This document shows, one piece after another, positions 17,825 through 31,715 of a stretch of 36,385 bases of DNA (positions are counted from its first letter, which is position 1; each line of letters starts with the position of its first letter). The notes under the pieces were generated by a model, which was given only the letters and a program-made list of their open reading frames with translations, was not told the DNA's origin and ran no database searches. Origin of the DNA: a virus (lineage: Duplodnaviria; Heunggongvirae; Uroviricota; Caudoviricetes); the IMG/VR virus record IMGVR_UViG_2698536369_000022. One strand, given 5' to 3'. The translations under genes and the position numbers were made by a program.

Positions 17825-18625
17825 TTAACCGCGCTTCGCCTTCTGCGTCGCGGTGGTTTTTCGTGTTGCAGGCTTCCGCGTTGTCTTTTTACTTTTGCTG
17901 CTTTCGTCCTGCGTCTGCGGTGTGCTGGCGTCTTCTGGTGCGGCTGCGGAATCGGCTTTTTTCAGGGCGCGGGAAAGGGTTGCAATCTCGCGTTTCACAC
18001 CTGCGTTCGGGTTCAGGTGCATTGCTTCGCGCAGCAGCTTCAGTGACAGGGCCATGCTGTCCGCATCACTCAGGCCACGGCGGGCAAAGGCGCACGCCTT
18101 GCATAATTTGGCGCGCACTTCGTCCGGCATGTCCTGGTCGGTGACAATCTCCCGGAGGGTGTCCAGTGGTTCGATAAAGGCGGATAAATCCGCGTCGGCA
18201 TCCGTTCCGGCCTGCGTCAGTACCGGGTTGCAGATTTCTTCGGTCAGCACTGTGGCAGCAGTACGGCCAAAGTTATCCGGCATGATGAGGTTGTGATGAA
18301 CCACATACGCACCAATACGCAATGCCAGCGGAAGATCGCCGCAGTCAATCGCCCACACCATCAGCGTGGCAATCACTTCATCCTGCTGCCCGCCGTCAGC
18401 CTCCAGCGTTCCTTCAATCCAGCCGGAAAAGTCCGGCAACAACTCTTTTTTGATGGCGGCTTTGGCGCTTCTGGCCTGTACGCCCTTAAGCCGGGCCTGT
18501 GCCAGACGCAGACGATACAGCACCTCTTCATGCGCGGTACGCGCGGCGTGGTCCACGCCTTCATTCGCCCGGCCTGCGCGCTGCGCCATCACGTTCTGCC
18601 AGTGTTGCTGTGCAGGAGTAATCAT
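17825..18625 (-). CDS. M: Terminase endonuclease (small) subunit M
   Basis: MITPAQQHW...KKELLP...ADMPDEVRAKL...AGVKREI and basic C-terminal tail match P2 gpM (MTSPAQRHM..KRELLP..ADMPDEVRAKL..AGVKKEI). Confidence 0.85.
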   Translation of the reverse strand: MITPAQQHWQNVMAQRAGRANEGVDHAARTAHEEVLYRLRLAQARLKGVQARSAKAAIKKELLPDFSGWIEGTLEADGGQQDEVIATLMVWAIDCGDLPLALRIGAYVVHHNLIMPDNFGRTAATVLTEEICNPVLTQAGTDADADLSAFIEPLDTLREIVTDQDMPDEVRAKLCKACAFARRGLSDADSMALSLKLLREAMHLNPNAGVKREIATLSRALKKADSAAAPEDASTPQTQDESSKSKKTTRKPATRKTTATQKAKRG

Positions 18626-20737: not shown

Positions 20738-22489
20738 ATGATTCAGGACGCTTTTGTGCGCCAGCGTGCGCGGCAACTTTACTGGCAGGGTTATCCGCCC
20801 GCAGAAATATCACGTCTGATGGGAATAAACCCGAACACGATTTATGCGTGGAAAAAACGTGACCAGTGGGATGAAACGCCACCCGTGCAGCGTGTCACGC
20901 AGTCCATCGATGCGCGCCTCATCCAGCTTACTGAAAAACAGAATAAAACAGGCGGTGACTTTAAGGAAATAGACCTGCTGACCCGGCAGCTTAAAAAACT
21001 GCATGATGGCCATCCGGATGCGACGGTCACAGGAAAGAAAGGCCGGGCGAAAAAACTCAAAAATCATTTCACGCCGGAACAGATTGCCGCACTGCGGGAA
21101 AAAATCATCAGCAGGCTGGAGTGGCATCAGCGGGGCTGGTTTGACTCCCTGACCCTTTGCAGGGAAGCCGGGATACGTAACAGGATGATCCTGAAATCCC
21201 GACAGATTGGGGCGACCTGGTATTTTGCACAGGAAGCACTGCTGATGGCGCTGCGTGACGATGTGGCGCAACCTTACCAGCGTAACCAGATTTTTTTGTC
21301 TGCGTCGCGTCGTCAGGCGTTCCAGTTTAAAAGCATTATTCAGAAGGCCGCGGCTGAAGTTGATGTGGAGCTGAAAGGGGGCGATAAAATCATCCTCTCC
21401 AACGGCGCAGAGCTGCATTTTCTCGGCACTTCTGCTGCGTCGGCACAGTCCTATACGGGCAATTTTTATTTTGATGAATTTTTCTGGGTCAGTCGCTTTG
21501 CTGAACTGCGCAAGGTGGCTGGCGCTATGGCAACCCTCAGCGGACTGCGGCGCACCTACTTCTCCACGCCATCCACCGAAACGCACGAGGCATACGCCTA
21601 CTGGAACGGCGACCGCTGGAACGAGAAAAAGGCCTCGCATAAACGCCAGCGTTTTTCTGTGGACTGGAAAACGCTGCATAACGGGCTTATCTGCCCTGAC
21701 CGGACGTGGCGGCAAATTGTCACGCTGGAAGATGTGGTTAATCACGGCTGGAAACACACCGATATTGACGAAATCCGTGATGAAAACACCGAAGACGAGT
21801 TCCTCAATCTCTATATGTGTGAGTTTGTTCGCGAAGGGGAATCGGCATTTAACCTGAATATCCTGATTGGCTGCGGTGTTGACGGATACGACGACTGGAA
21901 AGACTGGAAACCTTTTGCTCCCCGCCCGATGGGGAATCGTCCGGTATGGATTGGGTATGACGCAAACGGCAGCAGTGGCAACGGCGACAGCGGCGCTGTG
22001 TCCGTGGTGGTTCCTCCGGCTGTTCCTGGTGGCCGTTTTCGAACGGTGGAGACGCGACGCGTTCAGGGGCTGGAGTTTGAAGAACAGGCCAGAGTCATTG
22101 AAGAGTTCACGTGTCGCTACAACGTGGAACACATCGGCATTGATGTGACGGGCGGGAACGGGGAGGCTGTTTATCAGATAGTGAAACGGTTTTTCCCTGC
22201 TGCTATTCCGTACACCTTCACGCTGTCATCAAAACGGTCGCTGGTACTGAAAATGCTGCAAATAATGCGTGCCGGGCGGTGGGAATACGATCGCGCCGAA
22301 CGCGAGCTGGTCGCGGCCTTTAACGCCGTGCGTAAGGTGAAAACACCGGGCGGCTTTATCACTTACGAAACGGACCGCGCGAGGGGGATCAGCCACGGCG
22401 ACCTTGCGTGGGCAACCATGCTTGCTGTCATTAACGAACCGATTGGCGGCGAAGGAGAAAACGAGCGTTTCACGGTTATGGAGTTCTGA
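20738..22489 (+). CDS. P: Terminase ATPase (large) subunit P
   Basis: 583 aa; N-terminal HTH-like MIQDAFVRQRARQLYWQGYPPAEISRLMGINPNTIYAWKKRD and ATPase/nuclease core typical of P2 gpP. Confidence 0.9.
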   Translation: MIQDAFVRQRARQLYWQGYPPAEISRLMGINPNTIYAWKKRDQWDETPPVQRVTQSIDARLIQLTEKQNKTGGDFKEIDLLTRQLKKLHDGHPDATVTGKKGRAKKLKNHFTPEQIAALREKIISRLEWHQRGWFDSLTLCREAGIRNRMILKSRQIGATWYFAQEALLMALRDDVAQPYQRNQIFLSASRRQAFQFKSIIQKAAAEVDVELKGGDKIILSNGAELHFLGTSAASAQSYTGNFYFDEFFWVSRFAELRKVAGAMATLSGLRRTYFSTPSTETHEAYAYWNGDRWNEKKASHKRQRFSVDWKTLHNGLICPDRTWRQIVTLEDVVNHGWKHTDIDEIRDENTEDEFLNLYMCEFVREGESAFNLNILIGCGVDGYDDWKDWKPFAPRPMGNRPVWIGYDANGSSGNGDSGAVSVVVPPAVPGGRFRTVETRRVQGLEFEEQARVIEEFTCRYNVEHIGIDVTGGNGEAVYQIVKRFFPAAIPYTFTLSSKRSLVLKMLQIMRAGRWEYDRAERELVAAFNAVRKVKTPGGFITYETDRARGISHGDLAWATMLAVINEPIGGEGENERFTVMEF

Positions 22490-23535
22490 TGAGCAGAAAA
22501 AATAAAAAAGTGCGCATGAGTTCACGCATTGATCTCGCTGATGCGCTCAGGAAAGAATCATCGCTCAGTGCATTCACATTTGATGGTCCTTATAGCCTGA
22601 CCGGGCATGACCTGCTGGACAATATGTACTGTGCTGATAACGGGCGGTGGTATGAAACCCCGGTGGACTGGTACGGTCTGGCAAGAGCTGCCCGGCAAAC
22701 GTCCTGGCATCAGTCTGCGCTTTACTTTAAGCGCAATGTATTACTCGGTTGCTACATCCCGCACCCACTGCTTTCCCGGCAGGATTTCTCGGCGCTGGCG
22801 CTGGACTGGTTTGTGTTCGGTAACGCATTCCTTGAGCTTCGAAACAATATGCTCGGCGAACCGCTTAAATTACGGCACGCTCTGGCGAAATACATGCGAC
22901 GCGGAAGCGATCTTGAATCATGGTGGTATGTGCAGGATGGCAAGGACGCGTTCCAGTTTCGCCCTGGCAAAGTGTGCCACCTGATGAATCCGGATATTAA
23001 CCAGGAAATCTACGGCATGCCGGAATATCTTGGCGCATTACTCTCGGCCAGCCTGTCTCATTCGGCGGACATGTTCAGAAAACTGTATTACGACAACGGA
23101 TCCCACGCCGGGTGCATCATCTACATCGGTGCAGCGCAGGTAAACCGTGAAAGCATGGACTCCCTGAAAGAAACGCTACAGGGTGCACGTGGTGGTGGTG
23201 CGTTTAAAAACGTGCTCATTCATGCGCCCAACGGGGGCAAAGAAGGTGTGCAAATTTTGCCGTTCCAGCAGATCACCGCAAAGGATGAGTTCATGAATGT
23301 TAAGTCGGCATCCCGTGATGATGTGCTGGCTGCGCACCGCGTTCCGCCGCAACTGATGGGGGCGATGCCGGGCGAAAAAAGTGCGTTTGGTGATGTGGAG
23401 AAGGCCGCGCGGGTTTACGCAATTAACGAGCTGATGCCTGTCATGGAGGCCATGAAGCACATCAATGACTGGCTTGGCGAAGAGGTGATCCGTTTTAATT
23501 CTTATGCTCTTCTTGATGAAAAAACAGCCCCGTGA
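22489..23535 (+). CDS. Q: Portal (capsid) protein Q
   Basis: 348 aa following P with ATGA-type overlap; P2 Q-like sequence character. Confidence 0.85.
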   Translation: MSRKNKKVRMSSRIDLADALRKESSLSAFTFDGPYSLTGHDLLDNMYCADNGRWYETPVDWYGLARAARQTSWHQSALYFKRNVLLGCYIPHPLLSRQDFSALALDWFVFGNAFLELRNNMLGEPLKLRHALAKYMRRGSDLESWWYVQDGKDAFQFRPGKVCHLMNPDINQEIYGMPEYLGALLSASLSHSADMFRKLYYDNGSHAGCIIYIGAAQVNRESMDSLKETLQGARGGGAFKNVLIHAPNGGKEGVQILPFQQITAKDEFMNVKSASRDDVLAAHRVPPQLMGAMPGEKSAFGDVEKAARVYAINELMPVMEAMKHINDWLGEEVIRFNSYALLDEKTAP

Positions 23536-23551
23536 TGGGGCTGTCCTTTTT
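23524..23551. terminator. Bidirectional hairpin between convergent Q and the orphan gene
   Basis: Stem ACAGCCCC / GGGGCTGT with loop GTGAT, flanked by AAAA upstream and CCTTTTT downstream; overlaps both stop codons. Confidence 0.6.
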
Positions 23552-24074
23552 ACCAGAGTTGAACCATTTTCTGGGTGCCGTCAGGCTTGAGATTATCAAT
23601 TTCAGAGAGAACGTAATATTGAATGGCTTCACAAACGGTGGTGTATGGTGAATTACCTTCTTTAAGTGGCACGATATTATTATTAACGCGAACCTGTATT
23701 TCATCGTTATACATTGCGATCGAAAGAGGAGTATGCACGAACGCGACTTCGCCAGGTGTGTCGTCAACCACTGTCTCAATGCTGAAAATCAGTTTTCGCT
23801 CATCATTGCCGCCCCTTGCTTTGGGGGTAGCGGCAGGAATCTGAGATAAAGGCATTCTGCGAAACCCTTCAGTTGTTTCCAGTCCGCATGAAACGTAATG
23901 CTGGCGATTACCGTCGCTATCCGTCCATGTCTGTGATGGCAGCTCCAGAGAGATTTCATAAGCATCAACAATTCCCTGGGCAAGGTGTACAAGCGGGGTC
24001 AGATCTTCATTGCGGCGAAAACTTTCCTTTACCTGCTCTCGTTTTTCTCGTAACTGCTTGTAATTAATGACCAT
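23550..24074 (-). CDS. Orphan protein of about 174 aa (no recognised family)
   Basis: ORF with internal ATG (MVINYKQLREK..) preceded by GGAGG; protein-like composition; no motif I recognise. Track ORF 23550..24113 starts at GTG. Confidence 0.6.
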   Translation of the reverse strand: MVINYKQLREKREQVKESFRRNEDLTPLVHLAQGIVDAYEISLELPSQTWTDSDGNRQHYVSCGLETTEGFRRMPLSQIPAATPKARGGNDERKLIFSIETVVDDTPGEVAFVHTPLSIAMYNDEIQVRVNNNIVPLKEGNSPYTTVCEAIQYYVLSEIDNLKPDGTQKMVQLW

Positions 24075-24639
24075 AAAACAGCCTCCATTGATTTCTTTGC
24101 TCGTATTTTGCACTTATGAAGTGTGGTCGGCAAGGTGCCGCATCACTGACGCGCTTCGCTTGTCTGCTGCTTCGCCGGGGCATAAAAAATTTATGCCCCG
24201 ACTCTCCAGCTCCTGTATCAATCAGATAATTTCACGACGTCTTCCGACTTATCGCTATCATCGACAGTCAGGCTCTTACGCAATCCCGCCGCGCTGACTG
24301 CATGTTCTCGCCGCCTCAGTGCGATTTTGATGGCCTTACCTTTCATCCCATCAAATCAGAACCCCTTACGTCTTTTTCACGTTCAGCGTGAGCGATACAG
24401 CCATTCTGTTGTGTCGCTGCGACATCGTTCAGGGAATGCTATTTACCCCCTGAAACGCGGGCTGTTCCCCCGTCACCTGCGCGCAGAAAAAGCGCGTTTT
24501 TTTGTGCACGCACGGATCCTTGACGGATCCAGCCGCCACGCGGGCCGGAAGGGCAAAAATTCGTTCAAAAAAATTGTGCAAATTTGTGCACTATTGTGCA
24601 GCAGGGCGATGTGCGATTATCGCCCTGGTTTGAGGGGGA

Positions 24640-25179
24640 TCAGGTGTTATTTTTATCTGTCGTCAGTGGGCTAAACCATCCACAATTTACATCGCAGGAC
24701 TGATGCGTTCTGTCCTCGTGTTTCTCCTGCCACAATGCTTTTCCGCCAGCCTTTATGATGGCTCTTTCAACATCCCGCTCGTATCGCAAGGGCTGAAATA
24801 CGTCATTAATGAAATATTCGCTTATGTCCGGAAGCGATACTGCAAGATTATTTGTTTGTTGCGCCGTCCGGCTATGCAGCAAAGCGGCATACTTTAATGC
24901 GTCCTGTGCTTTCTGGAATTTAAGTGCATAGTCAGTGGCGATTTTTTCCAGTTCAGCGATGCGATTTTTTGCTGTTTCCAGTTCATCCAGCAGTGCCAGC
25001 ATGTCTTCCGGTCCAGCCAGAAGTCTGAAGGTGTTGATCGCGTCAATATCCACACCGTAATCTTTAAGTTCCTGTTCGCTTAACAAATCATCATCAACTG
25101 GCAATATTAACAGGCGTTCCATTGCCGGAATTGCACGTTCTGCTGCCATTTGTAGTGCCTGATAGTCAATTTTGCTCAC
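24640..25179 (-). CDS. Ead/Ea22-like family protein (paralogue 1)
   Basis: MSKIDYQALQMAAERA..MLALLDELETAKNRIAELEK shares N-terminal module with the adjacent gene. Confidence 0.55.
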   Translation of the reverse strand: MSKIDYQALQMAAERAIPAMERLLILPVDDDLLSEQELKDYGVDIDAINTFRLLAGPEDMLALLDELETAKNRIAELEKIATDYALKFQKAQDALKYAALLHSRTAQQTNNLAVSLPDISEYFINDVFQPLRYERDVERAIIKAGGKALWQEKHEDRTHQSCDVNCGWFSPLTTDKNNT

Positions 25180-25751
25180 TGACTGCCTCCTTTACGTAGC
25201 TCGGCGGCAAAAGCTACTGCGTGATCATGATGTTCAAGTGTGTATGCACACTCCGCAAACATCTCCACGCCCTGCGCCCGCACTTCAGCCAGGAAAGCAT
25301 CGGTGGCTGGAATGGGCTTTTGTGGTGATATAGCAATGCGAATTGTCTCAAGGTCTGGAGCTGTTTCCGCTGTTGGCACCTTGATATAACCCGTCTGCAC
25401 CCCATTCATGATGAACCTGCGACGGTCATCACATATCGCCTTAAGCCCTGCATTCTCCGCCGCCAGCGCCGCACGACTGGCCTCCAGTTCAGCAATGCGT
25501 TTGTTTTGGGCTTCCCGTTCATCCAGCAGCGCCTGCACTACTTCAGGGTTGAAAGCTGCGATATAACGAGCATTAGCAGCAGCTTTTTTCTGTCCATCAA
25601 ACCCAGGCCATTTGATAACATCTTCGCATCGTTTATCACCTGGCGTATGCACCGCATACGTACCAGTACCCGGCGAAATAAATGCGACCCATTCGCCCTG
25701 TGTTGCCTGTTTTGCTAACTCACGCAGTGCCTGATAGTTGATTTCGCTCAT
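25176..25751 (-). CDS. Ead/Ea22-like family protein (paralogue 2)
   Basis: MSEINYQALRELAKQATQGEW...NARYIAAFNPEVVQALLDEREAQNKRIAELE; family name from memory of prophage annotations. Confidence 0.55.
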   Translation of the reverse strand: MSEINYQALRELAKQATQGEWVAFISPGTGTYAVHTPGDKRCEDVIKWPGFDGQKKAAANARYIAAFNPEVVQALLDEREAQNKRIAELEASRAALAAENAGLKAICDDRRRFIMNGVQTGYIKVPTAETAPDLETIRIAISPQKPIPATDAFLAEVRAQGVEMFAECAYTLEHHDHAVAFAAELRKGGSQ

Positions 25752-25814: not shown

Positions 25815-26126
25815 TTATTCAGGAAATAACGCCCTGATATTTCCGGCCATCTGACTGGTTATCTGTGCGGTTGGTACTGGCTGTGAGTCGGGGCGTTCTG
25901 TCCTGGTTTGTGTCACTGATAACGCCTCATCATCAGCCCATGCAGCCAGTCGGTAAGCCTCTGCCGGATTCATTTTCAGAAGTGCCAGCCCAGCCAGAAA
26001 AGCCACGCGTTGGCCGCTTTTGCGGGCTTCTGGTGTAAGGCTGTCCAGCCATGCGCATGCTTCGCCTTCGTTCTTGACGGCGGCGGGCTTCAGATAGAAA
26101 CTTATCCGTCTGGTTGGTGTCGTCAT
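25815..26126 (-). CDS. parR: ParR-like adaptor/repressor of a type II partition system
   Basis: From internal Met: MTTPTRRISFYLKPAAV..AWLDSLTPEARKSGQRVAFLAGLALL resembles R1 ParR N-terminus (..RRTIAFKLNPD..LDSIPQGERS..RAALTAGLAL); immediately downstream of the parM-like gene. Confidence 0.55.
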   Translation of the reverse strand: MTTPTRRISFYLKPAAVKNEGEACAWLDSLTPEARKSGQRVAFLAGLALLKMNPAEAYRLAAWADDEALSVTQTRTERPDSQPVPTAQITSQMAGNIRALFPE

Positions 26127-26130
26127 TGGT

Positions 26131-27090
26131 TTACTCCTTGTCCATTGCGTACAGCCCATTAACCAGAGCAAACTGTGGCACCCCGTCCGCGATGAAAGTC
26201 GCATTAACTCCGCAGGCTTCGCGGATAGCGGGTGCCACAATCTCCGCCCCTCCACCGACAACCATCACCCGCCCGTAACCCGAAAAAACCGCCAGCGCGC
26301 GGATCACGCGTTGTTTCAGTGTTTCTTCCTTTTCACGAATAACCGCCATCAGGCTGTTGTAATGCGCGTCATTGTGGATGTGCTGGCGCAGCCAGGCTTC
26401 ATCATGGCGATGTTCGATAATGGTATTGGCGATGTGGTGACTGGTACGCATACCGTTAGTGGCCATCACCGACAGTACGGCATCGGCCATCAGGGAAACG
26501 CCTACGTGTGGATCGCAAAACACCTGGCTGATACCTGCCAGTTGTCCCTGAACCTTTGCCACATCCAGCGTGGTTCCGCCTAAATCCACAATCAGCAGGG
26601 ATTCAAACGGACTCATGTCAGCCAGTGCCTTAAAGCCAGCCGGAATGGATTCAGGCATAACCCGTACGTTGCGGATAGTGAATGCCTCACTGTTCTGATA
26701 CTCCACCGGGCGCATAACGTTCGCTTTTTTGCGGTTGATGTTGGCCATGTCCGGCTGGGCGTTTGTGTCGAAATACTCGCTCAGTGGCAGGGTGACAACC
26801 ACATCCACCTCCTGTGGCGTGATGCCTGATTTGACCAGCGCATGATGAATGGCAATGACATTCACATCGCTGTACTGGTATTGCGTGTCGGTCGTCTGGA
26901 CAAAGCGATCGCTGACCGGATCAAAACCATAGCGCACGCCATCAAGCATGTAGTTCGCGGGCTGCATGCCACCGAACGGCGCAGACCATTCCGACTTGAA
27001 GCTGTTCGGGCTGATGGCGTTGCGGCGTTCGCCGTTCTCAGTCCATGCCAGCTTGATGTTGGTGGAGCCGTCGTCGATGTGAATTTTCAT
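26131..27090 (-). CDS. parM: ParM/StbA-family actin-like ATPase
   Basis: MKIHIDDGSTNIKLAW, ISPNSFK, YSDVNVIAIHHALVKSG, NRKKAN, VRVMPESIPAG, LLIVDLGGTTLDVAKV, VMVVGGGAE and ALVNGLY align with R1 ParM motifs as I recall them. Confidence 0.75.
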   Translation of the reverse strand: MKIHIDDGSTNIKLAWTENGERRNAISPNSFKSEWSAPFGGMQPANYMLDGVRYGFDPVSDRFVQTTDTQYQYSDVNVIAIHHALVKSGITPQEVDVVVTLPLSEYFDTNAQPDMANINRKKANVMRPVEYQNSEAFTIRNVRVMPESIPAGFKALADMSPFESLLIVDLGGTTLDVAKVQGQLAGISQVFCDPHVGVSLMADAVLSVMATNGMRTSHHIANTIIEHRHDEAWLRQHIHNDAHYNSLMAVIREKEETLKQRVIRALAVFSGYGRVMVVGGGAEIVAPAIREACGVNATFIADGVPQFALVNGLYAMDKE

Positions 27091-27166: not shown

Positions 27167-30007
27167 TCATATATCGCGGCGCGTTTTTTGCTCATTTACG
27201 GGATTTGTGAATCCCGTTTCTGTCTGTTTTTTGTTTCCACTGGTCAGGCCACCCCGCAGCAGGTCTGCTTTGCGGCGGGCGCGTTCAGTGGTTTCACTGA
27301 TTCTCTGTGCGTGCTCTGCGTCGCGGATGGCGCGCAGCATGTCAGAAAGCACGGTAACGGGTGTTTTCATGGTGTTCTGGTCTTGCTGAAGTGTGGATGC
27401 CAGGCGTGCGGCGGCTTCGGGGTCTGATGCCCCCAGCTGTTCCAGATAGCTGGCGATCGGGTTATGGCGGATCTCCGTGCTGCTTACGCCGTGGTTACGG
27501 CTCAGGCGCTGCCAGAGCTGCGTGATCCGTCTGTCCGGTCGGGTATCCGGTTTGCGTACAATTTCAAATTCCTGCGGTGCAATGATGCTGCCGTCAACGT
27601 ACAGGCTGCCGCCCCGTAACAGGTGCTGCATCTGCTGTTCACCGATATGCAGGCCGAGAGATTCGGCAGATTCCCGCCATTCTTTAGCGAGTAATTCGTG
27701 GTTATCAGGCAAAGGCCGCTGCTGTTTGCGGCTCTGTGTCCAGCTCTGCATTTCATCACTGCTGTTTTTTGCCTGTTTGTCACGAAGCGAACGCATCAGC
27801 GCCCGGCGTTCGTGCCGTTTCAGTGAGCGCATCCATTCGTTCACTTCAACGCCGTCAGGGAGCTGCGGCCACGGTGCTGGCCGTTCTTCCGGCTGTTCTG
27901 TCCCGTTGTTGTCCGTTTCCTGTACACGGGGACAGTTATTGCCACGAGTCCAAGGGGCGGCAGGGCCGCCCTGAAGGTCAAAACCATTTTCGCGGGCGCT
28001 GTCTTCCGCTTCCGGTTTGCGTCTTACCAGCTTCCAGTTATCCGGATGCGTGCATACGCGGGAAGACTCCCCAATGAGCGGCGACCAGATCCCGTAAATC
28101 TGTACGCTCTGTTCACCGTAATCGTTCAGCTCATCTGCGAGGTCGTAGGCGGTGCGAATCAGGTAGTCTTTGCGTGGAACAAGTACGCCACCCTGTTTCT
28201 CAATGTAGGTGGCAAAACATCCGGCATCAGCGGCAGCGAGTACCGCGTCCATTGCGTCATCCTTCAGCCGTTGCGGGCCTTCCGGGTTGCGTGCCATCTG
28301 GCTGGCAAGGCGGCGCAGTTCACGCCACACCTGACGGGAGGGGATACCAAAGAACTGGAACTGGCGGACCCGGTGAAGGCGCGCCCAGCCGATGGCGCGT
28401 TCCACGCTCTCGGCCATTGATTTTCCGGTTTCGTGGTCAACGCGTGGCTTGCCCGTTTTCGGGTCGATGCCATCTACGGCGCGGCTGTCCAGGTTTTTTC
28501 CGATGTAGGTCGCGATATAGCTGGTTGGTGTGCCTTTTGAGCCGTCGACATACTCCGCCTTAAAGCGCGGAGTAATATCATTGCCCAGCTCGTGGCGGTC
28601 TTCCTGAATGGCAATATCGCGGGTGATGACCACGATGCTGTCGATTTCTTCCGGATGAGCAAAGACCATCATATGCCAGTGCACGGTGCCGTCATGGTGA
28701 GGCTCCACCGTGCGGATGCCATACCAGCGAAGACCGTCGCGGCTCAGTTTTTTGCGGACCGCCGCAAAAAACGTGTTAACCAGGTAATCGCTGGAGTCGC
28801 GCATGGTGGCCCCGTTCCATTTGGGGTTCGGATGACCGTTCTCCGTTGTTGCGTGGTATTTTGACGGGCAGGTGACAGTCAGAAACACCGCTCTGTCGCC
28901 ACGGGCTTCGGCCAGAAGTTCCAGTCCTTTCATGGTGGCCATCATTTCTGCCTTACGGTGAACCGGGTTACTTACTCCCGCGTAATACACTGTCTCGAGA
29001 TCAATCGTGAACCCGTCTTCATTTTCCAGCATGAAACTTTTCAGGAAATCGCGTGTTTTCTCGCGCTGTGCGCGAAACTCGCTTAACGCGTCCTGGCTCA
29101 GATAGGGTGATGTTTTTCTGGAAACCAGACAGGCGGCGCGGCGTTGTTCTTCTCTCCACTCGCAACGTAACAGCCACAGTTTGCGTTTCCACCAGTCCGC
29201 ACAGGTCAGGCGAAGGATTGCGCCCGGCAGCAGTTCTGTGTCCGGTTCGTTCCTCCGGTCTTTGTCTGTTGTCAGTGCGTCATAATGTGGCGGCATGGCG
29301 TGCAGGTGTAACGCCATTCGGGCCAGCATCTGATACGCCTTCAGCGCCACTTCCATGGTCAGCTCACCATCGGTCGCGCCAAAGCCATCGCAGAGTGTCT
29401 CGAAGGTGCTGCTGAACATTGCCGCCGTCATGGTGGCCAGTGTCTGTATCTGGTGTTTGTTGAGCTGCGGCAGGTACAGCAAATCGTCCAGGCGTTCGCG
29501 CCCGGCAAGGGAGCGATAACCCGGTGTCAGCCAGCGTCCGTCAGTGCGATCCAGACGTTCGAATATTTTGCGCAGGGTTCCGCGTGCATAGCGTTCAGCC
29601 TGCCAGCTCTTTTTGCCTTTCTGGCGATCGGCTTCCTGTTTTTTGCGCAGGAAAGAGAGGTGGCAGCTCAGTGGTTCACGCAGATAAACAGGTAGTGCCT
29701 TTAGTGTGGCAAAGGCACGGGCTACTGGGTCTTGTTCTGTTGCCCGGCGCTTACTGATGATGCTCTGTGCCAGCTTTTCACGCTGTCCGGCTTCCTCAAG
29801 GGATGCCATGAGTTTTTTACCCATGGCGGATTGTGCGAAAAAGGCTTCTTCCTTCGCTTCCTGTTCTTCCTGTGCCCTTTTGTCTGCCTCAAGGTAGTAA
29901 CGGATGGCGCGTTGCAGGTCGGTTTCAGTTTCCTGCCTGTGCTCCGTAAATCTGGCCGGATCAATGGCTGGCCGTGGTTCATTCCAGCTCCATGCAAACT
30001 CATTCAT
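27167..30007 (-). CDS. A: Replication initiation protein A (rolling-circle endonuclease, GPA family)
   Basis: About 946 aa from the internal MNEFAWSW Met (ATGA overlap with the upstream ORF); contains HDGTVHWHMMVF HUH-like motif; position in the early operon as P2 A. Confidence 0.8.
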   Translation of the reverse strand: MNEFAWSWNEPRPAIDPARFTEHRQETETDLQRAIRYYLEADKRAQEEQEAKEEAFFAQSAMGKKLMASLEEAGQREKLAQSIISKRRATEQDPVARAFATLKALPVYLREPLSCHLSFLRKKQEADRQKGKKSWQAERYARGTLRKIFERLDRTDGRWLTPGYRSLAGRERLDDLLYLPQLNKHQIQTLATMTAAMFSSTFETLCDGFGATDGELTMEVALKAYQMLARMALHLHAMPPHYDALTTDKDRRNEPDTELLPGAILRLTCADWWKRKLWLLRCEWREEQRRAACLVSRKTSPYLSQDALSEFRAQREKTRDFLKSFMLENEDGFTIDLETVYYAGVSNPVHRKAEMMATMKGLELLAEARGDRAVFLTVTCPSKYHATTENGHPNPKWNGATMRDSSDYLVNTFFAAVRKKLSRDGLRWYGIRTVEPHHDGTVHWHMMVFAHPEEIDSIVVITRDIAIQEDRHELGNDITPRFKAEYVDGSKGTPTSYIATYIGKNLDSRAVDGIDPKTGKPRVDHETGKSMAESVERAIGWARLHRVRQFQFFGIPSRQVWRELRRLASQMARNPEGPQRLKDDAMDAVLAAADAGCFATYIEKQGGVLVPRKDYLIRTAYDLADELNDYGEQSVQIYGIWSPLIGESSRVCTHPDNWKLVRRKPEAEDSARENGFDLQGGPAAPWTRGNNCPRVQETDNNGTEQPEERPAPWPQLPDGVEVNEWMRSLKRHERRALMRSLRDKQAKNSSDEMQSWTQSRKQQRPLPDNHELLAKEWRESAESLGLHIGEQQMQHLLRGGSLYVDGSIIAPQEFEIVRKPDTRPDRRITQLWQRLSRNHGVSSTEIRHNPIASYLEQLGASDPEAAARLASTLQQDQNTMKTPVTVLSDMLRAIRDAEHAQRISETTERARRKADLLRGGLTSGNKKQTETGFTNPVNEQKTRRDI
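27195..27220. repeat. Second copy of the palindrome (ACGGGATT-TGTG-AATCCCGT) inside the 3' end of gene A
   Basis: Near-identical arms about 73 bp from the first copy; encodes TGFTNPV of the A protein C-terminus. Confidence 0.6.
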
Positions 30008-30393
30008 GGCTGGTATCCCGTCACGCGCTGCCACTCCTGCGAGAAGAGGGCAGAAAGGCGGTTAAATTCAGCGGTGTATTCACTCAGCGAGGCACACCCG
30101 CCAGCAGTGCGATGCGCCAGCATTGCCGCAAATACGGAGGCCGGGGAGTCGTAATACGCCAGCAGTGATTCTCCGTGTGGTGTCAGGCAGTGCAACGCCA
30201 GCCCGTGTGGTGTGAAGTCCACGCGGTAGCAGTCGTCTACTGTGAAATAAAGGGTGTCTGCATTCTCCGGTTTTGTGGTGCGTGCTCTGTTGTCACGACC
30301 ACGGATGTAGAGATCAAATAATCCCTGAAGAACGGGAGCCAGACGGGTGTCCTGTGTGCGCACCCATCTTGTGAAGTCATGAGCGTCAATCAT
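30004..30393 (-). CDS. Hypothetical protein (129 aa), coupled upstream of A
   Basis: Protein-like ORF whose stop overlaps the A start; no recognised motif. Confidence 0.55.
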   Translation of the reverse strand: MIDAHDFTRWVRTQDTRLAPVLQGLFDLYIRGRDNRARTTKPENADTLYFTVDDCYRVDFTPHGLALHCLTPHGESLLAYYDSPASVFAAMLAHRTAGGCASLSEYTAEFNRLSALFSQEWQRVTGYQP

Positions 30394-31229: not shown

Positions 31230-31715
31230 ATGGGTAATCAGCCATCTGAAAATAATGCTGCGCGGCGACACGAGGTGATGTATCGCCTCTGGAATAGTTA
31301 CTGGCTTGAGCACATTGTGGAGGTGTTTAATCGCCGCATGGATACGGTTATCAATGCAGTTATTCTTACGTTGGGAGCCACGGTGTTTGCTGACAGTAAT
31401 TTCAGTTGGCTGCTGGGCGGTATAGTGGCTGTACTTAGCGGCTGCAATATCGCCTGGAAATTTGGTCAGCGTGCGGAGGCGGCGAAAGCACAAGCCCATC
31501 GTTACAGTGTGCTGATTTCCGAAAGCGGCAATCTCAGCACGGAAGATGTGCTTAACAGGCTTCTGGAAACAGAGAAGCAGGACTCCCCAGTGATTGAAGG
31601 CATGGATGCAGTCGCGCGAAACAAGGCGAGTGCATCTATGGGGCTTAAACATCGCGACCAACTTTCCCTTCCTCAAAAAATCATTGCGTTATTGACCGTT
31701 GGTAATCCCGGTTAA
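31230..31715 (+). CDS. Two-TM membrane protein (161 aa), oriented opposite to the early operon
   Basis: GAGGAGG RBS 11 nt upstream; two adjacent hydrophobic helices (TVINAVILTLGATVFA; FSWLLGGIVAVLSGCNIAW) then a charged helical C-terminal region; own terminator. Confidence 0.65.
   Translation: MGNQPSENNAARRHEVMYRLWNSYWLEHIVEVFNRRMDTVINAVILTLGATVFADSNFSWLLGGIVAVLSGCNIAWKFGQRAEAAKAQAHRYSVLISESGNLSTEDVLNRLLETEKQDSPVIEGMDAVARNKASASMGLKHRDQLSLPQKIIALLTVGNPG

What the first reader, a model, noticed from the sequence alone, without database searches (positions are those of the whole stretch)
24114..24639. About 530-bp non-coding region with dense repeats next to the packaging genes (candidate cos/promoter region)
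No plausible ORF. It contains a 10-bp-stem palindrome GGGGCATAAA-AAA-TTTATGCCCC (about 24177-24199), palindrome GGATCCTTGACGGATCC, three direct TTGTGCA repeats within 30 bp (about 24570-24600), and A5-GCGCG-T7. cos in P2-like phages lies near the portal gene, so this is the likeliest site for cos and terminase recognition, plus the promoter of the orphan gene. I could not match the P2 19-nt cohesive end with confidence.
Basis: seen in the sequence. Interest (0 to 1): 0.35.

Follow-up and report, generated by a model that had tools for sequence, protein, structure and literature searches.

The report
Packaging (cos) site of P88-like prophage
This non-coding stretch holds the DNA-packaging (cos) signal of a P2-family, P88-like E. 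coli prophage, next to a terminator-like hairpin; it is an ordinary and expected feature, but it had not been annotated for this phage lineage.

Summary
The real content is narrower than 530 bp. A block of about 160 bp (24441-24601) is the cos site.

- **Cleavage-site equivalent:** it lies at 24459/60-24477 (GGGCTGTTCCCCCGTCACC; reverse complement GGTGACGGGGGAACAGCCC, 13/19 identical to the P2 cohesive end). It is flanked by TGCGCGC and followed by a T-run plus TTGTGCAC. This is the only completely invariant stretch among 72 distinct P88-like sequences.
- **The three TTGTGCA repeats (24574-24600):** they sit at +118/+128/+138 from the 19-mer. P2, 186 and P4 carry three ATGCA repeats at almost the same offsets (+116/+126/+139).
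- **Boundaries:** homology in every relative stops at 24600/24601, where the variable cos-adjacent gene hotspot begins.
- **Satellite:** a roughly 12-kb satellite-like island in E. coli shares only this block (plus an integrase) with the window, as P4 does with P2.
- **The 10-bp-stem palindrome (24177-24199):** it is not part of cos. It is a very stable, conserved hairpin at the position of the P2/186 portal-operon terminators.
- **The other two repeats:** the GGATCC palindrome and the A5-GCGCG-T7 hairpin are lineage-specific.

The physical DNA ends were not tested. Verdict: a new member of a known kind, of low to moderate interest.

The parts
24441..24601 (.). Whole cos block. This is the stretch conserved in close relatives (P88-like, about 93-98%), in distant relatives (Klebsiella/Enterobacter Novemvirus-like, 70-78%), and in a satellite-like island (80%).
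   Evidence: BLAST edges fall at 24435/24446/24456 on the left and at 24599-24601 on the right in nearly all of about 110 loci. The block is present in 1148 of 5426 complete E. coli genomes, with no annotated feature under the match in 59 of the 60 rows listed.
24459..24477 (-). Predicted cosN, the equivalent of the cohesive-end segment. The G-rich strand is the - strand: 5'-GGTGACGGGGGAACAGCCC-3'. The left nick is uncertain by 1-3 nt: the HMM register gives 24460-24477 (18 nt).
   Evidence: It matches the P2 19-mer at 13/19 in the same orientation relative to the portal gene. It aligns colinearly with P2, 186 and 186-like cos cores through intermediates. 24460-24479 is the only 20-nt bin with zero variable sites among 72 distinct P88-like sequences.
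24478..24484 (.). TGCGCGC flank of the 19-mer. The weaker left flank is ACGCG at 24455-24459.
   Evidence: Near-invariant in P88-like and Novemvirus-like sequences. GCGCGC-type flanks lie on one or both sides of the 19-mer in P2, 186, L116 and L138.
24479..24503 (+). It is terminator-like on the + strand and occupies the position of the CCGCCCC..GGGGCGG inverted repeat plus TTTT in P2 and P4.
   Evidence: Flagged as terminator-like. Its stem is no more stable than shuffles (z -0.8). The stem is absent in Novemvirus-like relatives, but the T-run is kept.
24502..24508 (+). Proximal TTGTGCA(C) copy, the equivalent of TTTT(A/C)ATGCAC in the P2/186/P4 55-bp core.
   Evidence: TGC[AG] lies at offset +46 in 50 of 56 P88-like and 30 of 32 Novemvirus-like sequences, against +44 in 43 of 43 P2/186-like sequences. 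See also the alignment.
24514..24530 (.). GGATCC-TTGAC-GGATCC palindrome in the spacer; lineage-specific.
   Evidence: Kept in P88-like sequences and replaced by unrelated sequence in Novemvirus-like ones. Its fold is not significant. Other lineages (P4, 186-like) have unrelated GC-rich hairpins in this spacer, and P2 has none.
24540..24559 (.). Moderately conserved GGGCCGGAAGGGCA plus an A-tract. The GenBank record LR595891 (P88_4B11) is opened here, between 24555 and 24556.
   Evidence: The segment is polymorphic, with 10 variable sites in 20 nt among P88-like sequences. The depositors chose nt 1 'relative to reference genomes' (PMC6969025).
24574..24600 (+). Three TTGTGCA direct repeats at a 10-bp period. 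They form the distal cos element and are inferred to be a terminase recognition array.
   Evidence: One search gives the coordinates. The offsets are +118/+128/+138, against +116/+126/+139 for 3x ATGCA in P2/186-like sequences. A triple is present in 55 of 56 P88-like, 28 of 32 Novemvirus-like and 29 of 43 P2/186-like distinct sequences, against at most 0.07% of shuffles. P4 has the same array. The best nhmmer hit of a P2/186-like cos profile in the whole window is 24542-24603, E = 0.035.
24146..24213 (.). Conserved 68-bp module that begins at the portal stop codon in P88. It contains the 11-bp-stem hairpin 24176-24200 and sits at the position of the portal-operon terminators (tQ/tW) of P2 and 186, but it has no U-tract.
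   Evidence: Searches show the position in P88, and searches show tQ and tW. It is near-invariant in 72 sequences and 98.5% identical in L114, L115 and L120, which have different portals. The scan did not flag it as a terminator.
24214..24440 (.). Spacer between the hairpin and cos. It is conserved only within the P88-like lineage and has no assigned function.
   Evidence: No coding signature for the 42-aa ORF 24218-24346 that is annotated in P88. No Rfam hit. Not alignable to Novemvirus-like relatives.
23536..24145 (-). Inserted cassette, absent from P88 itself. It carries a 174-aa gene of unknown function (23550-24074, - strand, PHROG 5091), its GGAGG at 24082-24086, and its untranslated leader.
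   Evidence: Homology to P88 resumes at 24138-24146. No Pfam or PADLOC hit; PHROG 5091. The + strand terminator 23524-23544 overlaps the portal stop.
24602..24627 (-). Hairpin CAGGGCGAT..ATCGCCCTG just after the stop codon (24640-24642) of the Ead/Ea22-like hotspot gene. It belongs to the variable cassette, not to cos.
   Evidence: -15.6 kcal/mol, z -3.6. It lies outside the conserved block.

Best explanation
The window is a P88-like (Xuanwuvirus, Peduoviridae) prophage. The intergenic stretch 24075-24639 is composite, and its functional core is the phage's cos site at 24441-24601.

**How it most likely works.**
1. The P2-type terminase recognises this block on replicated phage DNA. The small subunit (gpM family) is encoded at 17825-18625 and the large subunit (gpP family) at 20738-22489.
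2. It makes staggered nicks at the two edges of the G/C-rich segment 24459/60-24477, giving 5'-protruding cohesive ends of about 18-19 nt (5'-GGTGACGGGGGAACAGCC(C) on the portal-proximal end).
3. It then packages one genome unit.

**Elements of the site.** The segment next to the nick sites (TGCGCGC, T-run, TTGTGCAC) corresponds to the 55-bp core shared by P2-family phages. The three helically phased TTGTGCA repeats about 100 bp further on are the lineage's version of the three ATGCA repeats of P2, 186 and P4. They are most likely where terminase, probably the small subunit, binds and sets packaging specificity.

**What is not part of cos.** The strong palindrome at 24176-24200 is a conserved hairpin that normally sits just after the portal gene, at the position of the terminators of the terminase-portal operon in P2 and 186. 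In this window a 610-bp cassette carrying a gene of unknown function has been inserted between it and the portal gene.

**Shown versus inferred.**
- Shown: the location, conservation, colinear homology and sharing with a satellite-like island.
- Inferred: the exact nick positions, the 5' polarity and length of the overhang, which protein binds the repeats, and terminator activity of the hairpin.

**Confidence by sub-claim.** The overall figure of 0.8 is for cos lying in this block with cosN at about 24459-24477. I put the nick positions (within 3 nt) at about 0.6 and the repeats as terminase sites at about 0.55.
For: **Context**
- The gpM-family small terminase, gpP-family large terminase, portal, and gpA replication protein are all present.
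- Two Ead/Ea22-like genes lie between gpA and this site.
- This is the cos-proximal arrangement described for P2-like phages (PMC9122126).

**Conservation edges**
- About 110 related loci stop aligning at 24600/24601.
- Distant relatives (portal 67-69% identical) begin aligning only at 24446-24456.

**Constraint**
- 24460-24479 is the only invariant 20-nt bin among 72 distinct P88-like sequences.

**Homology to known cos sites**
- In the same orientation relative to the portal gene, P2, 186, 186-like, L125-127, L116-119, Novemvirus-like sequences and the window share one order of elements: GCGCGC-type flank, C-rich 19-mer, inverted repeat or T-run, (A/G)TGCAC, a spacer of about 60 bp, then three (A/G)TGCA.
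- A profile of 42 P2/186-like cos regions matches L116-119 over positions 4-152 (E about 1e-16) and Novemvirus-like loci over positions 19-164 (E down to about 1e-5; most between 1e-5 and 1e-2). Those loci are 70-78% identical to the window over 24446-24601.
- The profile's best hit in the window itself is 24542-24603.
- The TGC[AG] offsets agree within 2 bp between lineages.
- P4 carries the same distal triple repeat.

**Satellite**
- A roughly 12-kb island in E. coli mip270_05 carries integrases, a toprim primase, an Ogr/Delta protein and its own P2-family capsid gene, with no terminase or portal annotated.
- It shares only 24435-24601 (80%) and an integrase segment with the window.
- In a 1.1-kb query from that island, about 400 E. 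coli genomes match only the 160-167-bp cos block.

**Published P2-family cohesive ends resemble the predicted one**
- phiRSA1: GGTGAGGCGGGGTCCAAC (PMC5694545).
- Smp131: GGCGTGGCGGGGAGACGAG (PMC3931495).
Against: - No physical end data exist for this lineage.
- The direct match of the window's 19-mer to P2 is only 13/19.
- The P2/186-like profile does not reach the window's core on its own: only the distal part scores, at E = 0.035. Assignment of cosN therefore rests on transitive homology through intermediates.
- The one P88-like GenBank record that is opened inside this block (LR595891) is opened at 24555/24556, about 80 bp from the predicted nicks.
- A better raw match to the P2 19-mer (16/19) exists elsewhere in the window, at 31473-31491.
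- Literature held here describes only a 55-bp core as the conserved cos region. A role for the distal repeats in packaging is therefore my inference.
- The hairpin at 24176-24200 lacks a U-tract.
Confidence: 0.8

Rival explanations
1. The cleavage site is not at 24459-24477 but in the G-rich segment 24540-24555 (GCGGGCCGGAAGGGCA). On this reading the invariant block at 24459-24484 is an accessory terminase-binding or termination element.
For: - GenBank LR595891 (P88_4B11, sequenced from virions) is linearised exactly at 24555/24556, inside the conserved block. An arbitrary opening point would fall inside this 160-bp block by chance in about 0.4% of a 37-kb genome.
- A sister record from the same study (LR595869) starts inside the true P2 cos.
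- The segment loosely resembles GGCGGGGAAAGCAC.
Against: - The depositors state that contig-end repeats were removed and nt 1 was chosen relative to reference genomes. The record's two ends abut without overlap or gap.
- The segment is polymorphic among close relatives, with 10 variable sites in 20 nt, whereas 24460-24479 is invariant.
- Its G-rich strand has the opposite orientation relative to the portal gene from P2 and 186.
- In the profile alignment this position corresponds to the variable spacer of P2/186-like cos regions.
Confidence: 0.06
2. cos is correctly placed, but the three TTGTGCA repeats are not terminase sites. On this reading they bind another protein, such as a regulator of the adjacent hotspot or cassette genes or a nucleoid or bending protein, or they form promoter elements. 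In P2 the third ATGCA overlaps a TTGAAT hexamer upstream of the old-tin transcript start.
For: - In P2 the old-tin mRNA starts lie about 25-50 bp beyond the third ATGCA (and the sequence).
- The published conserved cos core is only 55 bp.
- No binding data exist.
Against: - The array keeps the same distance from the 19-mer (within 2 bp) in lineages whose neighbouring hotspot genes differ completely in content and orientation.
- In the window the neighbouring genes converge on cos, so no outward gene needs a promoter there.
- P4 and the satellite-like island, which share little else with their helpers, keep the array.
- The Ogr-type TGT-N12-ACA motif is not present, read directly from the sequence.
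Confidence: 0.12
3. The stretch is only an intergenic region with terminators and leftover repeats, and the functional cos lies elsewhere, for example at the 16/19 match to the P2 cohesive end at 31473-31491.
For: - 31473-31491 (GCGGAGGCGGCGAAAGCAC) is the best raw match to the P2 19-mer in the window.
- Terminator-like sites are enriched in 23400-24900: 6 found against 1.3 expected.
Against: - The 31473 site lies inside an ORF and has none of the flanking cos architecture.
- It has the wrong orientation.
- The cos profile gives no hit there.
- The surrounding 200 bp has no match in any of 50,697 phage records, so relatives lack it.
- The 24441-24601 block is the segment shared with distant relatives and with a satellite-like island.
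Confidence: 0.02

Closest known systems
cos sites of coliphages P2, 186 and satellite P4 (19-nt 5' cohesive ends GGCGAGGCGGGGAAAGCAC / GGCGTGGCGGGGAAAGCAT; 55-bp conserved core of Ziermann & Calendar 1990, as cited in PMC5694545 and PMC3931495)
   Same: - Position between the portal gene and the gpA-side variable hotspot.
- Orientation of the G-rich strand relative to the portal gene.
- Order of elements: GCGC-type flank, 19-mer, T-run plus (A/G)TGCAC, a spacer of about 60 bp, three (A/G)TGCA at +116 to +139.
- A cognate gpM/gpP-type terminase.
- Sharing of the block with a small satellite-like element.
   Different: - No nucleotide BLAST match to P2 or 186.
- The 19-mer is only 13/19 identical and may be 1-3 nt shorter.
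- TGCGCGC lies on the hotspot side of the 19-mer rather than the portal side.
- The repeat unit is TTGTGCA rather than ATGCA.
- About 260 bp of lineage-specific spacer, and here a 610-bp gene cassette, separate cos from the portal gene. In P2 and 186 the distance is about 170 bp.
Phage lambda cos (cosQ-cosN-cosB, with three R sites for the small terminase gpNu1 and an IHF site); comparison from my own knowledge
   Same: A nicking site plus a nearby array of three short repeats that would serve as small-terminase binding sites. It works like this in outline.
   Different: - No sequence or protein homology was tested or expected.
- The overhang is 19 nt rather than 12 nt.
- The repeats lie on the side away from the terminase genes.
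- No IHF consensus is seen by eye.
- This is an analogy only, not membership.
tQ (P2) and tW (186) terminators of the terminase-portal operon
   Same: The hairpin 24176-24200 lies about 30 nt after the portal stop codon in P88, between the portal gene and cos, as tQ and tW do.
   Different: - No U-tract on either strand.
- In this window it is separated from the portal gene by an inserted cassette that brings its own canonical terminator (23524-23544).

Membership tests
P2-family cos site | Lies between the 3' end of the portal gene (gpQ) and the variable region next to the replication gene gpA | tested here: met
   The portal gene is at 22489-23535, gpA at 27167-30034, and Ead/Ea22-like variable genes at 24640-25751. 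The arrangement is described in PMC9122126.
P2-family cos site | G/C-rich cohesive-end segment of about 19 nt resembling GGCGAGGCGGGGAAAGCAC, with the G-rich strand reading towards the portal gene | tested here: met
   24459-24477 matches at 13/19 in the correct orientation. The HMM register through Novemvirus-like loci gives 24460-24477. This is the most constrained segment. On its own, 13/19 would be weak.
P2-family cos site | Colinear 55-bp core (flank, 19-mer, inverted repeat or T-run, TTTT-N-ATGCAC) | tested here: inconclusive
   It is colinear by eye and by profile on the intermediates L116-119 and the Novemvirus-like loci. The P2/186-like profile does not reach the window's own core, so the link is transitive through 70-78% identical relatives.
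P2-family cos site | Distal array of three (A/G)TGCA repeats about 116-139 nt from the start of the 19-mer. This feature was found here in P2, 186, P4 and relatives; it is not a published criterion as far as I could check. | tested here: met
   Offsets are +118/+128/+138 in the window's lineage, against +116/+126/+139. P4 is shown. The profile hit is at 24542-24603, E = 0.035.
P2-family cos site | Cognate P2-type terminase (gpM small subunit, gpP large subunit) | tested here: met
   PF05944 at 5e-37 (17825-18625); PF06056, PF03237 and PF17289 (20738-22489).
P2-family cos site | Virion DNA ends with complementary 5' single-stranded extensions at this site | not testable with these tools
   No read data or end sequences are available. 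The only record opened inside the block (LR595891) had its nt 1 chosen by the depositors.
P2-family cos site | Sufficient for packaging, or shared with satellites that borrow the helper's terminase | tested here: met
   The sequence part is met: a satellite-like island shares only this block and an integrase segment with the window. Actual mobilisation was not tested.
Intrinsic (rho-independent) terminator, for hairpin 24176-24200 | G+C-rich stem-loop followed directly by a U-tract | tested here: not met
   The stem is very stable, but no T-run follows on either strand and the scan does not list it. It is therefore filed as 'terminator-position hairpin', not as a canonical terminator.
Lambda-type cosB | Repeats bound by the small terminase, with an IHF site between them | not tested
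   Binding cannot be tested here. No WATCAANNNNTTR match is seen by eye in 24540-24600. This is an analogy only.

The most novel reading that the evidence does not exclude
The distal triple repeat, together with the 19-mer, may act as a packaging-specificity code for the P2 family: GTGCA-type in the P88-like/Novemvirus-like lineages and ATGCA-type in the P2/186/P4 lineages. Such a code would sort helpers and their satellites into separate compatibility groups. The capsid-encoding 12-kb island found here would then be a dedicated parasite of P88-like phages. The sharp homology break immediately after the third repeat would mark the recombination boundary through which the cos-adjacent defence hotspot is exchanged.
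Probability: 0.3. Interest if true: 0.5.

Novelty: new member of a known kind. Interest (0 to 1): 0.25.

Why it matters
It places the packaging site of a prophage lineage found in about one fifth of complete E. coli genomes, where the database records examined annotate nothing at this position.

- The prediction is testable: nicks at about 24459/60 and 24477, and a recognition array at 24574-24600.
- It defines the exact backbone edge (24600/24601) of the cos-adjacent hotspot used to mine anti-phage genes.
- It offers a sequence handle for finding satellites that exploit P88-like helpers.
- The conserved spacing of a triple repeat across P2, 186, P4 and this lineage suggests the functional cos is longer than the 55-bp core usually quoted.

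None of this is surprising in kind.

Tried and rejected
- **Direct BLAST:** megablast and blastn of the stretch against 50,697 phage records found only P88-like phages and one Novemvirus, not P2 or 186.
- **Direct profile search:** a P2/186-like cos profile scored only the distal part of the block in the window.
- **Rfam:** nothing inside the stretch. The only hit is a sub-threshold nadA match at 24763-24847, outside it.
- **Promoter scan:** none in 24075-24639.
- **Small ORFs:** the ORFs annotated in P88 (gp21, gp22) and others show no codon-position bias.
- **LR595891 nt 1 as a physical end:** rejected after reading the methods of the source paper.
- **16/19 decoy at 31473-31491:** rejected.
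- **Spacer hairpin as a family feature:** common but not universal, and P2 lacks it.
- **A5-GCGCG-T7 stem as a conserved structure:** absent in Novemvirus-like relatives.
- **Motifs checked by eye:** the IHF consensus and the Ogr TGT-N12-ACA motif are not matched.
- **parC/ParR centromere idea:** rejected because P2, 186 and P4 have the repeats but, to my knowledge (not checked here), carry no ParMR genes.
- **Source literature:** the Ziermann & Calendar 1990 paper itself is not held, so I could not check whether the distal repeats were already described.
- **PDB sequence search of the 174-aa cassette protein:** only low-complexity matches to designed helical repeat proteins.
Full report
**What the window is.** The ORF map and Pfam scans show a P2-family phage genome.
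- The small terminase (PF05944) is at 17825-18625 on the - strand.
- The large terminase (gpP-type) is at 20738-22489 and the portal at 22489-23535, both on the + strand.
- The replication protein gpA is at 27167-30034. A ParM/StbB pair lies at 25815-27090. Two Ead/Ea22-like genes lie at 24640-25751. An integrase runs off the right end.
- The closest phage records are Xuanwuvirus (P88-like) phages of E. coli and Citrobacter.
- The portal is about 45% identical to P2 Q and about 49% identical to 186 W.

**Checking the observation.**
- The palindrome is at 24177-24199, with an 11-bp stem at 24176-24200.
- GGATCCTTGACGGATCC is at 24514-24530.
- TTGTGCA occurs at 24574-80, 24584-90 and 24594-600, with a fourth copy at 24502-08.
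- A5-GCGCG-T7 is at 24487-24503.
- The four TTGTGCA copies are 4 of only 6 in the whole window.
- The big hairpin is far more stable than shuffles (z -5.4 and -6.6). The GGATCC palindrome and the A5..T7 stem are not.
- The neighbouring gene really starts at ATG 24074, not GTG 24113. The non-coding stretch is therefore 24075-24639.
- Candidate ORFs inside the stretch, including two annotated in P88, show evenly spread substitutions over the codon positions, variable start codons and frameshifts among 72 distinct relatives. The region is non-coding.

**Comparative anatomy.**
- I fetched 80 loci around close portal relatives and 80 around the portal of Enterobacter phage phiT5282H, which range from 100% down to 47% identity.
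- BLAST of the stretch against all of them gives a very regular picture.
  - Loci without the inserted cassette begin to align at 24138-24146.
  - Nearly all loci stop aligning at 24599-24601.
  - Distant relatives (Klebsiella/Enterobacter, 70-78%) align only from 24446-24456 to 24600.
- The stretch therefore divides into five parts:
  - an inserted cassette end (to 24145);
  - a 68-bp module with the hairpin (24146-24213);
  - a lineage-specific spacer (24214-24440);
  - a deeply conserved block of about 160 bp (24441-24601);
  - the start of a variable cassette.

**Finding the cohesive-end segment.**
- Within the conserved block, the multiple alignment shows four conserved islands:
  - GGGCTGTTCCCCCGTCACC-TGCGCGC;
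  - T-run plus TTGTGCAC;
  - GGGCCGGAAGGGCA plus an A-tract;
  - the triple TTGTGCA.
- Among 72 distinct P88-like sequences, 24460-24479 is the only 20-nt bin with no variable site.
- The reverse complement of 24459-24477, GGTGACGGGGGAACAGCCC, matches the P2 end GGCGAGGCGGGGAAAGCAC at 13/19. Its G-rich strand reads towards the portal gene, as in P2 and 186.
- Intermediates bridge the gap. L116-119 read GGCGAGGCGGGGGAGCAAG at the same place, and the 186-like loci read the 186 end.
- Laid side by side in the portal-to-hotspot direction, P2, 186, the 186-like loci, L125-127, L116-119, the Novemvirus-like loci and the window share one order of elements.
- A profile built from 42 P2/186-like cos regions gives these matches:
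  - L116-119 end to end, E about 1e-16;
  - Novemvirus-like loci over model positions 19-164, E about 1e-5 to 1e-2;
  - in the window, only the distal part, 24542-24603, E = 0.035, the best hit on both strands.
- The HMM register places the 19-mer equivalent at 24460-24477, with one insertion and two deletions. The left nick is therefore uncertain by 1-3 nt.
- Published ends of other P2-family phages are similar: phiRSA1 GGTGAGGCGGGGTCCAAC and Smp131 GGCGTGGCGGGGAGACGAG.

**The triple repeat.**
- P2 (TTAATGCAATCTCATGCACCCTTGAATGCA), 186 and P4 (ATGCAAAGCCATGCACCTTATCGATGCA) each carry three ATGCA copies about 100 bp beyond the 19-mer on the hotspot side.
- Measured from the start of the 19-mer, TGC[AG] occupies these offsets:
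  - +44, +50, +116, +126 and +139 in P2/186-like sequences;
  - +46, +118, +128 and +138 in P88-like and Novemvirus-like sequences.
- The sequences between these positions are unalignable.
- A triple with 9-13-bp spacing is present in 55/56, 28/32 and 29/43 distinct sequences of the three groups, against at most 0.07% of shuffles.
- I infer that they are terminase recognition sites. Binding has not been tested, and the literature I could read speaks only of a 55-bp core. The original paper is not held.

**Independent support from a satellite-like island.**
- One of the weaker E. coli matches (80%) lies in a roughly 12-kb island between gcd and hpt in strain mip270_05.
- The island carries two integrases, an HTH regulator, an Icd-like protein, a toprim primase, an Ogr/Delta zinc-finger protein, its own P2-family major capsid gene and MazEF. 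No terminase, portal or tail genes are annotated.
- It shares only 24435-24601 and part of the integrase gene with the window.
- With a 1.1-kb query from the island, 52 genomes carry the island context. About 400 others match only the 160-167-bp cos block.
- This mirrors P2 and P4, whose only shared region is cos (PMC9122126). It argues that the whole block, repeats included, is the packaging signal.

**The palindrome.**
- In P88 the portal stop codon is the TGA at the start of the 68-bp module, and the hairpin follows about 30 nt later. This is the position of terminators tQ and tW in P2 and 186.
- The module is almost invariant. It is 98.5% identical in three loci whose portals differ strongly.
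- It has no U-tract and is not flagged by the terminator scan. Terminator function is therefore inferred from position only.
- In this window, a 610-bp cassette separates the hairpin from the portal gene.
  - The cassette carries a 174-aa gene of unknown function: PHROG 5091, with no Pfam or PADLOC hit.
  - It brings its own canonical terminator at 23524-23544.
- Insertions between cos and the portal gene are known in this family (PMC5694545).

**Rivals.**
- LR595891 (P88_4B11) is opened at 24555/24556. However:
  - the depositors removed end repeats and chose nt 1 relative to reference genomes;
  - that segment is polymorphic;
  - it aligns to the spacer of P2/186-like cos regions.
- A 16/19 match to the P2 end at 31473-31491 lies inside an accessory ORF. 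It is in the wrong orientation, lacks the cos architecture, and sits in DNA that no phage record shares.
- A regulatory role for the repeats cannot be excluded. It fits poorly with their fixed spacing from the 19-mer across lineages with unrelated neighbouring genes, and with their retention in P4 and in the island.

**Verdict.**
This is the cos region of a P88-like P2-family prophage, with the cleavage segment predicted at 24459/60-24477 and a recognition array at 24574-24600.
- It is a new, previously unannotated member of a well-known kind of site, so interest is low to moderate.
- The exact nick positions, the overhang, the binding protein and the hairpin's function remain to be shown experimentally.

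Noticed in passing
window 31473-31491 (+ strand): GCGGAGGCGGCGAAAGCAC matches the P2 cohesive end at 16/19, better than the true site. It lies inside an accessory ORF (31230-31715), has no cos-like flanks, and sits in DNA absent from all phage records. It is a decoy for motif-only searches.
   Followed up: yes
L171 and L173 (E. coli mip270_05, NZ_CM132658.1, about 4411344-4423858): This is a satellite-like island of about 12 kb between gcd and hpt. It carries two integrases, an Icd-like protein, a toprim primase, an Ogr/Delta protein, its own P2-family major capsid gene (PF05125, 2e-72) and MazEF, with no terminase or portal annotated. It has a P88-type cos block that is 80% identical to window 24435-24601. 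The island context is present in 52 of 5426 complete E. coli genomes.
   Followed up: partly
L095 3812-3955 and 4045-4153 (IMGVR_UViG_2675903480_000004): There are two cos cores in tandem about 230 bp apart. The second is divergent and has decayed distal repeats. This is possibly a scar of hotspot exchange by recombination at cos.
   Followed up: partly
L060 4377/4378 (equivalent to window 24479/24480): An IS1 end is inserted 2 nt from the predicted cleavage segment in one relative. This presumably inactivates packaging of that prophage.
   Followed up: partly
window 24146-24213; L114, L115, L120: The 68-bp portal-stop-plus-hairpin module is 98.5% identical in loci whose portal proteins are only about 67% identical to relatives of this lineage. 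It is either a small mosaic segment or an unusually constrained one.
   Followed up: no
window 23536-24145: This cassette is inserted between the portal gene and its hairpin, relative to phage P88. It carries a 174-aa gene (23550-24074, - strand; PHROG 5091, unknown function; no Pfam or PADLOC hit). It replaces the last three portal codons and supplies a canonical terminator at 23524-23544.
   Followed up: partly
L169 1-40 (GenBank LR595869, Peduovirus P2_2H4): The deposited record begins with a remnant of the Nextera transposase adapter (…AGATGTGTATAAGAGACAG), followed by GGGAAAGCAC, which is position 10 of the P2 cohesive end. This is adapter contamination in a public phage genome.
   Followed up: no
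L027 about 4935 onward (equivalent to window 24542): One metagenomic relative diverges from the cos block at 24542. It lacks the A-tract and the triple repeat at the usual place. It may be a deleted or rearranged cos.
   Followed up: no
window 24763-24847 (+ strand): There is a sub-threshold Rfam match to the nadA riboswitch family (25.1 bits against a gathering score of 37.5). It lies antisense within the Ead/Ea22-like gene and is probably a chance match.
   Followed up: no
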